Assembly: GCF_044324785.1 (NCBI RefSeq)
Contig: NZ_CP172127.1
Reading direction: 5' to 3' (one strand)
DNA from: Escherichia coli
GTDB lineage: Bacteria; Pseudomonadota; Gammaproteobacteria; Enterobacterales; Enterobacteriaceae
Length of the DNA stretch: 64,000 nucleotides
Below the pieces are notes generated by a model, which had not been told where the DNA came from, ran no database searches, and saw nothing but the letters and a program-made list of their open reading frames with translations. Made by a program: the position numbers and the translations under genes. Positions 1-4,452 of the stretch are shown piece after piece; the stretch's first letter is position 1; every line of letters begins with the position of its first letter.

Positions 1-1
1 A

Positions 2-682
2 ACGCGCGAGCAACGCTGGAAATACCTTTCCACTGCCAAACTAAAAGCCGCGCCGGGCAGCCAGGCCGCGTACTCCAACCTCGCATTCGATCTGCTGGCA
101 GATGCACTGGCGAATGCGTCCGGCAAGCCTTATACCCAGTTGTTTGAAGAGCAGATTACCCGTCCATTGGGGATGAAAGACACCACCTACACCCCCTCGC
201 CGGATCAGTGCCGCCGTTTAATGGTTGCTGAGCGCGGTGCCAGTCCGTGCAATAACACGCTGGCGGCAATTGGCAGCGGCGGAGTCTATTCCACGCCTGG
301 CGATATGATGCGCTGGATGCAGCAGTATTTGTCATCTGATTTTTATCAGCGCAGTAACCAGGCAGATCGCATGCAGACGTTGATTTATCAGCGAGCGCAG
401 TTTACAAAAGTGATTGGCATGGATGTCCCCGGCAAAGCGGATGCGCTTGGTTTAGGCTGGGTATATATGGCCCCGAAAGAGGGTCGTCCAGGGATTATTC
501 AGAAGACAGGTGGTGGTGGCGGTTTCATTACCTATATGGCGATGATCCCGCAGAAGAACATTGGCGCATTTGTGGTGGTCACTCGTTCGCCATTGACGCG
601 CTTTAAAAATATGAGCGATGGCATCAATGACCTGGTGACCGAACTGAGCGGGAATAAACCGTTGGTCATCCCCGCGTCCTGA
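2..682 (+). CDS. ampH: Penicillin-binding protein AmpH, C-terminal part (5' end lies outside the window)
   Basis: Open frame runs from the window edge to TGA at 680-682; position relative to yaiV/yaiT matches K-12 synteny. Identity rests mainly on synteny. Confidence 0.7.
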   Translation, partial: TREQRWKYLSTAKLKAAPGSQAAYSNLAFDLLADALANASGKPYTQLFEEQITRPLGMKDTTYTPSPDQCRRLMVAERGASPCNNTLAAIGSGGVYSTPGDMMRWMQQYLSSDFYQRSNQADRMQTLIYQRAQFTKVIGMDVPGKADALGLGWVYMAPKEGRPGIIQKTGGGGGFITYMAMIPQKNIGAFVVVTRSPLTRFKNMSDGINDLVTELSGNKPLVIPAS

Positions 683-1365
<683 letters not shown>

Positions 1366-1379
1366 AACCTATTTCTTCA

Positions 1380-4301
<2,922 letters not shown>

Positions 4302-4452
4302 TTGTCATCCCTCCTCAGGGACGTAATAAGTTGATCCATCAATTATCAATGCATAGAAAACATATTATGTTTCGCGTTGACGATTATGCGGCGTTATAGA
4401 GGAATGGTTCAATTATTCTTTCCCCTAAGTCCGATTGCGGACATATATAAAG

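What the first reader, a model, noticed from the sequence alone, without database searches (positions are those of the whole stretch)
680..685. ampH and iprA (yaiV) converge with directly abutting stop codons
TGA (680-682, plus strand) is immediately followed by TTA (683-685, the minus-strand TAA). With no intergenic space there is no room for separate terminators, so the 3' ends of the two transcripts must overlap, allowing mutual antisense effects.
Basis: seen in the sequence. Interest (0 to 1): 0.2.

Follow-up and report, generated by a model that had tools for sequence, protein, structure and literature searches.

The report
ampH 3' hairpin hidden inside iprA
Two facing E. coli genes, ampH and iprA, do end on adjacent bases, which is already in public annotation; the new point is that a conserved RNA hairpin for the ampH transcript is written into the last 15 codons of iprA, so a shared gene end still carries its own stop signal.

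Summary
ampH stops at TGA 680-682 (+) and iprA/yaiV at TAA 685-683 (-). RefSeq annotates the same abutment in E. coli, including K-12, so this is not new. The tight junction is old: in 80 Enterobacteriaceae species the stop-to-stop gap is -4 to +5 nt in 70.

Ten nt past the ampH stop, inside iprA's last 15 codons, lies a hairpin (692-728, -20 kcal/mol) with a U-rich tail (726-736).
- Its 8-bp core pairs in 99.5% of cells across 76 distinct sequences.
- Synonymous compensatory switches recur (AAA/CGT<->AAG/CGC, AAA/CCT<->AAG|CGG/CCC, GGC/TTG<->GGT/TTA), with G.U intermediates only in the ampH sense.
- It beats 99.8% of synonymous recodings.
- It is missing from iprA paralogs not next to ampH.
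- It has decayed where a stand-alone hairpin sits in a wider spacer.

I read it as the 3'-end-forming hairpin of ampH mRNA: an intrinsic terminator or exonuclease stop. iprA has no convincing conserved terminator, so its transcript probably does run into ampH. Mutual antisense regulation is untested. This is a new member of a known kind, of modest interest.

The parts
1..682 (+). 3' part of ampH (DD-carboxypeptidase/endopeptidase, PBP family); stop codon TGA at 680-682
   Evidence: ORF list; Pfam Beta-lactamase E=7e-40; RefSeq annotation of near-identical E. coli loci
683..1306 (-). iprA (yaiV), a winged-helix regulator; stop codon TAA at 685-683; annotated start ATG at 1306-1304 (207 aa)
   Evidence: ORF list; Pfam HTH_46 E=6e-31; RefSeq annotation; homologs all begin at M-L-S and end at the invariant ...LPxEY
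680..685 (.). The reported junction: TGA immediately followed by TTA (the complement of TAA), with zero intergenic bases
   Evidence: Read directly in the sequence; same layout annotated in RefSeq; gap of -4 to +5 nt in 70 of 80 species
692..728 (+). Hairpin 1, acting in the ampH-sense RNA. Conserved 8-bp core AGGCAAAC (695-702) / GUUUGCCU (718-725), an inner 5-bp stem with loop AUAG, and 3 outer pairs in E. coli. It is encoded by iprA codons K-G-K-L-V-A-I-N-R-L-P-S.
   Evidence: Fold: -20.2 kcal/mol, z -6.0, 0 of 200 shuffles as good. Perfect 9-nt inverted repeat. Covariation. Repeated independent switches on a tree. Strand asymmetry. Synonymous-recoding null p=0.002. Identical in 5388 of 5411 E. 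coli records. Single copy in the window.
726..736 (+). U-rich tail UUAUUCAUUUC after the hairpin core (5 U in the first 8 nt). The predicted ampH 3' end is about 732-737, which is K-12 395080-395075 on the - strand.
   Evidence: Sequence. Tail census across species: U-rich in Escherichia, Citrobacter, Salmonella and Kluyvera types; U-poor (CGGCUCAU) in the Enterobacter/Lelliottia/Leclercia clade. The 3' end position is an inference, not a measurement.
648..675 (-). Hairpin 2, a weak candidate in the iprA-sense RNA: GCGGGGAU...AUUCCCGC, 7 nt after the iprA stop, inside ampH codons S-G-N...I-P-A
   Evidence: -16.7 kcal/mol in the iprA sense versus -10.3 in the ampH sense. Present in Escherichia and some Citrobacter only; mean z across 81 loci is -0.68. 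Not significant against synonymous recoding, p=0.065. The tail UCAGUUCGGU is not U-rich.
400..600 (-). C-rich, G-poor stretch of the iprA-sense RNA downstream of the iprA stop; a possible Rho loading region (inference)
   Evidence: + strand GC skew of +0.2 to +0.29 over 401-600, so C exceeds G on the - strand. No experiment addresses this strand.

Best explanation
ampH and iprA are an anciently linked convergent pair with essentially no spacer. The ampH transcript still has its own 3'-end signal: an RNA hairpin (692-728) with a U-rich tail (726-736). It starts 10 nt after the ampH stop and is encoded on the opposite strand by the last 15 codons of iprA, so it is a dual-coding element.

In Escherichia it most likely works as a Rho-independent terminator. 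At the least it acts as a pause site and 3'-exonuclease barrier that fixes the ampH mRNA 3' end about 50 nt inside iprA. That limits antisense transcription across iprA and stabilises ampH mRNA.

iprA has no comparable conserved signal. Its transcript probably runs into antisense ampH and is ended by the weak Escherichia-specific hairpin 2 and/or by Rho.

Shown here: the abutment, the hairpin, its conservation and covariation, its strand preference, and its dependence on ampH adjacency. Inferred: that it ends or protects the ampH transcript, and everything about iprA termination.
For: Anatomy:
- -20.2 kcal/mol, z -6, with tail UUAUUCAU.

Selection on structure:
- The core 8 bp are paired in 605 of 608 cells over 76 distinct sequences. 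Pair 13-43 is AU:42 / GC:31. Pair 19-37 is AU:55 / GC:17. Pair 16-40 is CG:74 / UA:2.
- RNAalifold independently predicts the same stem.
- Parsimony on an ampH-based NJ tree needs at least 11, 6 and 2 state changes at these three pairs.
- Only 0.2% of codon-usage-weighted synonymous recodings of the same peptide fold as well. The stem uses the minor codons TTG and CCT.
- Within E. coli the 50-nt element is invariant in 5388 of 5411 records. The adjacent 50 nt of iprA are >=99% identical in only 542 of 4263.

Strand of action:
- Non-Watson-Crick cells are 144 G.U and 173 mismatches in the ampH sense, against 7 G.U and 310 mismatches in the iprA sense.
- Intermediates of the compensatory switches are always the ampH-sense G.U type.

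Link to ampH:
- iprA-like paralogs that follow an autotransporter but are not next to ampH keep the G-K-L...L-P residues yet have no hairpin (-5.7 to -9.1 against a mean of -20.0 kcal/mol).
- The three weakest embedded cores of 82 loci are Cronobacter (-1.6), S. arizonae (-5.2) and Buttiauxella (-6.6). These are three of the four lineages with a stand-alone hairpin in an enlarged spacer. The other 78 loci average -11.7, with the worst at -8.3.
- Kosakonia cowanii lacks iprA and has a strong stand-alone hairpin 7 nt after the ampH stop.
Against: No measured 3' end supports it. Adams et al. 2021 Term-seq tables list none at the junction, though the genes are weakly expressed.

The same study reports a Rho termination region at K-12 395316 (-), which is window ~496. 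Its 800-nt downstream window spans the junction and antisense iprA: reads go from 57 to 247 with bicyclomycin, Rho score 2.48. Part of ampH-sense transcription here is therefore Rho-limited, and the hairpin is not a complete stop.

The U-tract is only moderate in E. coli. It is poor in the Enterobacter/Lelliottia/Leclercia clade, where the hairpin nevertheless still covaries. Canonical intrinsic termination therefore cannot be its universal mode of action.

The consensus terminator scan reported only the inner 5-bp stem.

Part of the G.U asymmetry is forced by the coding constraints of iprA: at pair 18-38 only one direction of change is synonymous.

S. enterica diarizonae keeps the embedded core despite having a stand-alone terminator.
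Confidence: 0.55

Rival explanations
1. The hairpin does not terminate transcription. ampH-sense transcription is ended further downstream by Rho (or by collision with RNA polymerase coming from iprA). The conserved hairpin only stops 3'-to-5' exonucleases or pauses polymerase, defining a processed, stable ampH 3' end.
For: - There is a Rho termination region around the ampH 3' end and antisense iprA in K-12.
- The hairpin is conserved with covariation in the Enterobacter clade, where the tail CGGCUCAU is not U-rich.
- K. cowanii's stand-alone ampH hairpin also has a poor U tail, GGCUUAAC.
- Rho-terminated transcripts are known to be trimmed back to stem-loops (Dar & Sorek 2018, as summarised in Adams et al.).
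- Hairpins act as pause elements at bidirectional terminators (Wang et al. preprint).
Against: In Escherichia, Citrobacter, Salmonella and Kluyvera types the tail has 4-6 U in 8 nt directly after a stable stem, which is the layout of an intrinsic terminator. The stand-alone replacements in Salmonella and Cronobacter carry U runs, UUUUUG and GUUU. The Rho data have 800-nt resolution and low counts.
Confidence: 0.3
2. One reading: neither gene has a usable terminator, both transcripts run well into the partner gene, and the complementary 3' regions regulate each other through an RNA duplex, RNase III cleavage or transcriptional interference.
For: Overlap of each transcript with the partner's coding sequence is geometrically unavoidable. 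No conserved iprA terminator was found. If both hairpins mark the 3' ends, the two RNAs would share about 95 complementary nt (about 640-735). A precedent exists for convergent 3' overlap regulation in E. coli, mscL/arfA (PMC10070815, listed). The ampH-iprA adjacency is kept in all 80 species sampled.
Against: A selected ampH-sense hairpin right after the ampH stop argues that read-through is being limited, not exploited. No expression or 3'-end data show either antisense RNA. Read counts are low. Lineages that gained a 33-44 nt spacer with a stand-alone hairpin keep both genes, so zero spacing is not required.
Confidence: 0.15
3. The hairpin acts on iprA itself, either as a structure in iprA mRNA (stability, or ribosome pausing before the stop) or as a DNA palindrome bound by a protein. 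It has nothing to do with ampH.
For: It lies inside iprA. It also folds in the iprA sense (-14.8 kcal/mol, z -4.7). The Watson-Crick covariation alone is symmetric between strands.
Against: Wobble and mismatch asymmetry favours the ampH sense: core 20 G.U and 3 mismatches, against 1 G.U and 22 mismatches. The ampH sense is more stable in 59 of 76 sequences. The iprA-sense fold is only marginal against synonymous recoding, p=0.048. Paralogs of iprA elsewhere in the genome lack it. It decays when a stand-alone hairpin appears next to ampH.
Confidence: 0.07
4. There is no function. The inverted repeat is a by-product of a conserved peptide (GKL...RLP) and codon usage.
For: The residues encoded by the stem are invariant or nearly so, which by itself conserves many stem bases.
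Against: Paired third-codon positions switch together repeatedly. Minor codons are retained. Only 0.2% of synonymous recodings do as well. Paralogs with the same residues have no hairpin. Synonymous sites are frozen across about 5400 E. coli genomes.
Confidence: 0.03

Closest known systems
Rho-independent terminators lying inside the coding sequence of a convergently overlapping gene (Lillo & Krakauer 2007, Biol Direct, PMC2174442)
   Same: The logic is the same. When convergent genes leave no spacer, the hairpin and U-tract of one gene must be encoded within the partner's CDS. They found predicted terminators for 23 of 116 genes in 58 E. coli convergent overlaps.
   Different: That was a genome-wide count of predictions without evolutionary support. 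Here a single case is documented with synonymous compensatory covariation, strand assignment, and loss or replacement patterns. In E. coli this pair abuts rather than overlaps.
Overlapping bidirectional terminators between convergent genes, and collision-driven termination (Ju et al. 2019; Wang et al. preprint 10.1101/2022.10.23.513370; the ynaJ-uspE example)
   Same: A convergent pair, with a hairpin-encoding element at the meeting point that can act as a pause site. Such sites do not always resemble intrinsic terminators.
   Different: Those elements sit in intergenic spacers and serve both transcripts. Here the hairpin is inside one CDS, is asymmetric (ampH sense favoured), and cannot be iprA's 3' end. 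The iprA stop codon lies 9-11 nt beyond the stem, so a 3' end at the usual distance would truncate the stop codon.
Stable stem-loops that define processed 3' ends of Rho-terminated mRNAs (Dar & Sorek 2018, NAR, PMC6061677)
   Same: A hairpin shortly after the stop codon without a strong U-tract in many lineages, and a Rho termination region reported nearby in K-12.
   Different: Not shown for ampH. In Escherichia the tail is U-rich enough for intrinsic termination.
mscL-arfA convergent 3' overlap in E. coli (PMC10070815)
   Same: Convergent genes whose 3' regions are complementary. A hairpin near the end of one ORF matters for expression.
   Different: For arfA, cleavage in the hairpin and antisense crosstalk are experimentally shown. 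For ampH/iprA nothing of this kind has been tested.

Membership tests
Canonical intrinsic (Rho-independent) terminator | Stable G+C-containing RNA hairpin a short distance downstream of the stop codon | tested here: met
   The hairpin at 692-728 starts 10 nt after TGA. It folds at -20.2 kcal/mol, z -6.0, with an 8-bp core containing 4 G-C pairs plus a 5-bp inner stem.
Canonical intrinsic (Rho-independent) terminator | U-rich tract immediately 3' of the stem | tested here: inconclusive
   In the window the tail is UUAUUCAUUUC, with 5 U in the first 8 nt. This is moderate, not a clean U run. The tail is poor (CGGCUCAU, 2 of 8) in the Enterobacter/Lelliottia/Leclercia clade. The simple consensus scan reported only the inner stem.
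Canonical intrinsic (Rho-independent) terminator | RNA 3' ends map in the U-tract and are independent of Rho | tested here: inconclusive
   No 3' end is listed at the junction in the Adams et al. 2021 tables. A Rho termination region (score 2.48, 800-nt windows) is reported at K-12 395316 (-), nearby. Other data sets are not held.
Evolutionarily conserved RNA secondary structure | Base pairs maintained by compensatory (both-sides) substitutions in independent lineages | tested here: met
   Three core pairs show double changes: 31, 17 and 2 sequences. At least 11, 6 and 2 state changes are needed on the tree. 0 of 500 shuffles reach the observed covariation score or percentage paired.
Overlapping bidirectional terminator (Ju et al. 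2019 type) | One hairpin element serves as the 3' end for both convergent transcripts | tested here: not met
   By geometry, the iprA stop codon (685-683) lies 9-11 nt beyond the stem on the iprA-sense RNA. An iprA 3' end at the hairpin would therefore lack an intact stop codon. The iprA-sense tail CAGAGUAUUAA is not U-rich, and the structure is weaker in that sense.
Convergent overlapping genes | The coding sequences share nucleotides | tested here: not met
   Overlap is zero in the window and in Escherichia. A 4-nt overlap (TTAA-type shared stops) occurs in 15 of 80 other species.
cis-antisense / excludon-type regulation | Overlapping transcripts demonstrably alter each other's level or processing | not testable with these tools
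   No strand-specific expression, RNase III or promoter-perturbation data could be retrieved.

The most novel reading that the evidence does not exclude
The embedded hairpin is a coupling device rather than only an insulator. When ampH is transcribed, polymerase pausing or collision at the hairpin, or RNase III cleavage of the roughly 50-95 nt duplex formed by the two 3' regions, cuts iprA mRNA upstream of its stop codon. The resulting non-stop, tmRNA-targeted iprA message (arfA-like) would link expression of a cell-wall enzyme to the level of the peroxide-resistance regulator IprA. This would explain why the convergent adjacency is kept in every species sampled.
Probability: 0.08. Interest if true: 0.55.

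Novelty: new member of a known kind. Interest (0 to 1): 0.3.

Why it matters
The abutting stop codons are ordinary and already annotated. The useful result is a clean, comparatively supported example of dual coding: about 37 nt that specify a conserved protein C-terminus on one strand and a selected RNA hairpin for the neighbouring gene on the other, kept by synonymous compensatory changes.

There are three practical consequences.
- Terminator and 3'-UTR annotation should look inside the partner's CDS at tight convergent junctions.
- Synonymous sites at the iprA 3' end are not neutral, which matters for recoding and dN/dS work.
- Deleting iprA/yaiV in E. coli is expected to remove ampH's 3' hairpin. 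From my own knowledge of the Keio design, which leaves only the last six codons, the Keio-type deletion would do this. Phenotypes assigned to iprA could then include an effect on ampH. In Salmonella, where iprA was characterised, a stand-alone hairpin in the 44-nt spacer makes this less likely.

Tried and rejected
- **Hairpin 2 (648-675) as a conserved iprA terminator.** It is present in Escherichia and some Citrobacter and is better in the iprA sense. It is not general (mean z -0.68 over 81 loci) and not significant against synonymous recoding (p=0.065). I kept it only as a weak candidate.
- **Known RNA family.** Rfam gives only chance-level hits (E > 4).
- **Repeated element (REP-like).** The motif occurs once in the window.
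- **Experimental 3' ends.**
  - The Adams 2021 supplements list none at the junction. I first searched with outdated K-12 coordinates and repeated the search after one search gave the current ones.
  - The TERMITe supplements have no entry.
  - The Dar & Sorek, Choe 2022 and 3'-seq comparison supplements are not held.
  - Herman 2016 (the iprA paper) and Lesnik 2001 (terminator predictions) are not held.
- **HusR SELEX peak 'in yaiV'**. It lies mid-gene, not at the hairpin, so it is irrelevant.
- **Built-in terminator scan.** It found only the inner 5-bp stem, because the full stem has a bulge.
- **Genome-wide count of zero-gap convergent pairs.** Not feasible with these tools. I used the local window and literature numbers instead.

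Full report
**Observation.** The window reads ...GCG TCC TGA TTA ATA CTC... at 674-691. The + strand ORF ending in TGA at 680-682 is the 3' part of ampH (Pfam Beta-lactamase, E=7e-40). The - strand ORF 683..1351 ends in TAA at 685-683 and is iprA/yaiV (Pfam HTH_46, E=6e-31).

It is also already public. PGAP annotates ampH and iprA with abutting coordinates in a 99.7%-identical E. coli genome and in K-12 MG1655 (iprA 394506-395129 +, ampH 395130-396287 -). The locus is present in 5418 of 5426 complete E. coli genomes. One small correction applies. The annotated iprA start is the ATG at 1306 (207 aa), which agrees with all homologs. The ORF's first ATG at 1351 lies inside an intergenic hairpin.

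**How unusual is it?** Among the eight convergent pairs in the first 50 kb of this window the gaps are 0, 16, 39, 39, 87, 100, 125 and 174 nt, so this is the tightest. Tight convergent junctions are still not rare: Lillo & Krakauer counted 58 convergent overlaps in E. coli.

More telling is conservation. I retrieved 80 species-representative loci encoding IprA relatives. In every one, ampH converges on iprA. The stop-to-stop gaps are:

| Gap (nt) | Loci |
|---|---|
| -4 | 15 |
| 0 | 14 |
| +1 | 13 |
| +2 | 16 |
| +3 to +5 | 12 |
| 13-17 | 6 |
| 33-44 | 3 |
| 157 | 1 |

The AmpH C-terminus varies in length by a few residues, so the exact stop positions drift. The lack of a spacer is ancestral.

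**What is in the 'missing' spacer.** Ten nt after the ampH stop, on the ampH-sense strand, lies a hairpin. Its parts are UGA-AGGCAAAC (695-702), an inner stem GGUUG/CGACC with loop AUAG, a bulged A, and GUUUGCCU (718-725), followed by UUAUUCAUUUC. It folds at -20.2 kcal/mol (z -6.0, 0 of 200 shuffles as good). It contains a perfect 9-nt inverted repeat. It is a single copy in the window and matches no Rfam family. On the other strand these bases encode IprA residues K-G-K-L-V-A-I-N-R-L-P-S. The stem pairs the K-G-K-L codons with the R-L-P codons.

**Is the hairpin selected, or a by-product of a conserved peptide?** Six lines of evidence favour selection.
- Over 76 distinct sequences the 8-bp core is paired in 605 of 608 cells. 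Three pairs made of third-codon positions switch on both sides: AAA/CCT <-> AAG or CGG/CCC (AU:42, GC:31), AAA/CGT <-> AAG/CGC (AU:55, GC:17), and GGC/TTG <-> GGT/TTA (CG:74, UA:2). 0 of 500 shuffles reach the observed covariation score or percentage paired.
- RNAalifold predicts the same core independently.
- On an NJ tree built from the flanking ampH sequence, parsimony needs at least 11, 6 and 2 state changes at these pairs. The switches are therefore repeated, not one inherited event.
- I recoded the same 20 residues with the window's own codon usage. This gives -9.7 +/- 3.2 kcal/mol against -20.9 observed, and only 0.2% of recodings do as well.
- The stem keeps the minor codons TTG (Leu) and CCT (Pro).
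- Within E. coli the 50 nt covering hairpin and tail are identical in 5388 of 5411 records. The next 50 nt of iprA are >=99% identical in only 542 of 4263 records that match at all.

**Which strand does it serve?** Watson-Crick covariation is strand-symmetric, but wobble pairs are not. Non-canonical cells are 144 G.U and 173 mismatches in the ampH sense, against 7 G.U and 310 mismatches in the iprA sense. In the core the counts are 20 G.U and 3 mismatches against 1 and 22. The ampH-sense fold is the more stable in 59 of 76 sequences.

The observed intermediates of the compensatory switches (AAA+CGC, AAA+CCC) are all G.U in the ampH sense. The opposite intermediates never occur. Part of this asymmetry is imposed by iprA's coding constraints. 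The pairs where both directions are synonymous still point the same way, about 4-5 cases to 0.

**Is it tied to ampH?** Three natural experiments say yes.
- iprA-like paralogs sit after an autotransporter gene but not next to ampH (L084, L086, L087/88, L089). They keep G-K-L...L-P but have no hairpin: -5.7 to -9.1 kcal/mol against a mean of -20.0 for the ampH-adjacent orthologs.
- Four lineages have an enlarged spacer with a stand-alone hairpin.
  - These are Salmonella (43-44 nt, with UUUUUG in the ampH sense), Buttiauxella (33 nt) and Cronobacter (34 nt, AUAACGGCGCC...GGCGCCGUUAU-GUUU).
  - The three weakest embedded cores among all 82 loci are Cronobacter (-1.6), S. arizonae (-5.2) and Buttiauxella (-6.6).
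  - The other 78 loci average -11.7 +/- 1.6, with the worst at -8.3.
  - S. enterica diarizonae still keeps the core.
- Kosakonia cowanii has no iprA, and ampH is followed by hemB. It carries a strong stand-alone hairpin 7 nt after the ampH stop.

In every context, then, ampH has a hairpin just past its stop codon. Where there is no spacer, the hairpin is written into iprA.

**Mechanism.** I commit to this: the hairpin forms the 3' end of ampH mRNA. In Escherichia, Citrobacter, Salmonella and Kluyvera types the tail has 4-6 U in the first 8 nt. That is the layout of an intrinsic terminator and predicts 3' ends at about 732-737 (K-12 395080-395075, - strand). This amounts to a 50-55 nt intrusion into iprA.

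Two facts keep the alternative alive, namely Rho or collision termination with the hairpin acting as pause site and exonuclease barrier. First, the Enterobacter/Lelliottia/Leclercia clade has a U-poor tail (CGGCUCAU), yet its hairpin still covaries. Second, Adams et al. 2021 list a Rho termination region at K-12 395316 (-), equal to window ~496. Its 800-nt downstream window spans the junction: 57 reads without bicyclomycin, 247 with it, score 2.48. The same tables contain no Term-seq 3' end at the junction, which is uninformative given the low counts.

**iprA's own end.** Hairpin 2 lies at 648-675 in the iprA sense, 7 nt after the TAA. It folds at -16.7 kcal/mol against -10.3 in the ampH sense. 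In Escherichia and several Citrobacter its non-canonical pairs are G.U only in the iprA sense. It is not conserved across the family (mean z -0.68), is not significant against synonymous recoding (p=0.065), and lacks a U-tract. Downstream, the iprA-sense RNA is C-rich and G-poor over about 400-600. This is compatible with Rho loading, but that is inference only. iprA transcripts therefore probably do extend into antisense ampH.

It is partly supported. Overlap of each transcript with the partner's CDS is unavoidable, and for iprA it may be substantial. 'No room for terminators' is refuted for ampH by a selected, embedded hairpin whose likely role is to limit the overlap. 'Mutual antisense effects' have no evidence for or against.

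**Comparison with what is known.** Terminators inside the partner's CDS at convergent overlaps have been counted before in E. coli (23 of 116 genes). Hairpin elements at convergent junctions are known as bidirectional terminators or pause sites. Trimming of Rho-terminated RNAs to stem-loops is also known. This case is a member of that kind, but not of the bidirectional class. The iprA stop codon lies beyond the stem, so the hairpin cannot be iprA's 3' end without destroying the stop. No paper I could search mentions this junction.

Novelty: a new member of a known kind. Interest is modest at about 0.3. It is a tidy dual-coding example, with a practical warning for iprA deletions and for treating these synonymous sites as neutral.

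**Limits.** All functional statements are inferred from sequence comparison. No 3'-end mapping, expression or mutant data were available. The NJ and parsimony counts are approximate. The paralog and replacement tests rest on 2 and 4 lineages respectively.

Noticed in passing
window 1324-1353: A perfect 13-15 bp hairpin (UAAUGCCCGUCAA-AUCC-UUGACGGGCAUUA) lies between the ehaB stop (1392-1394, - strand) and the annotated iprA start (1306). It folds at -23 kcal/mol, z -7.3 on the + strand. The tail is U-rich on the + strand (AUUUAGAUU) but not on the - strand (CUGCAAAGG). iprA is therefore bracketed by two hairpins that look better as terminators for ampH-sense (antisense-to-iprA) transcription. 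The ORF's first ATG (1351) lies inside this hairpin.
   Followed up: partly
L084, L086, L087-L089, L090; window 1392-4340: Every IprA-like (HTH_46) gene examined sits immediately downstream of, and co-directional with, an autotransporter adhesin gene. This includes paralogs that are elsewhere in the genome and not next to ampH. It suggests a conserved autotransporter + IprA-like regulator module (ehaB/yaiT + iprA here).
   Followed up: partly
window 1392-4340 versus K-12 (L082): The autotransporter ehaB/yaiT is intact in this window (PGAP 1392..4340; ORF 969 aa from the ATG at 4301). In K-12 MG1655 yaiT is a pseudogene split by IS3.
   Followed up: no
window ~496 (+ strand), equal to K-12 395316 (-): Adams et al. 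2021 list a Rho termination region internal to ampH, 186 nt before its stop. The Rho score is 2.48 with low read counts. ampH-sense transcription near its 3' end is partly Rho-limited in K-12.
   Followed up: partly
window 683-1400 versus 1-650: iprA is markedly AT-rich (GC 0.35-0.47 in 100-nt windows) next to ampH (0.47-0.62). This is compatible with a foreign or H-NS-type region together with ehaB.
   Followed up: no
L002-L081, last codons of ampH: The AmpH C-terminus is plastic: ...VIPAS*, ...LTASN*, ...IPASLD*, and others. The ampH stop codon wanders by a few nt and in 15 species overlaps the iprA stop as TTAA-type shared stops. The iprA C-terminus (...LPxEY*) is fixed in length.
   Followed up: partly
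L062 (Salmonella enterica subsp. arizonae): iprA looks decayed here. The match begins only at residue 34 with 60% identity, and the RLP motif has a P->L change. The embedded hairpin has a mismatch, next to a very strong stand-alone spacer hairpin (-27 kcal/mol, z -7.8).
   Followed up: no
L009 (Citrobacter amalonaticus S646): The ampH C-terminal match stops at residue 219 of 226 of the query fragment, and the stop-to-stop gap is 157 nt. This may be a rearrangement or insertion at the junction. The embedded hairpin is still intact (-10.5 core).
   Followed up: no
L074 versus L075: A contig labelled 'Chryseobacterium sp. 18061' carries an enterobacterial ampH-iprA locus. Its sequence is almost the same as that of 'Citrobacter sp. 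18056' from the same study. This is probably a mislabelled or contaminated assembly.
   Followed up: no
P0070: This is a 259-aa ENA protein with a Beta-lactamase Pfam hit that nevertheless matches 61% of IprA at 100% identity. It is probably a gene call running through the junction on a frameshifted or misassembled contig.
   Followed up: no
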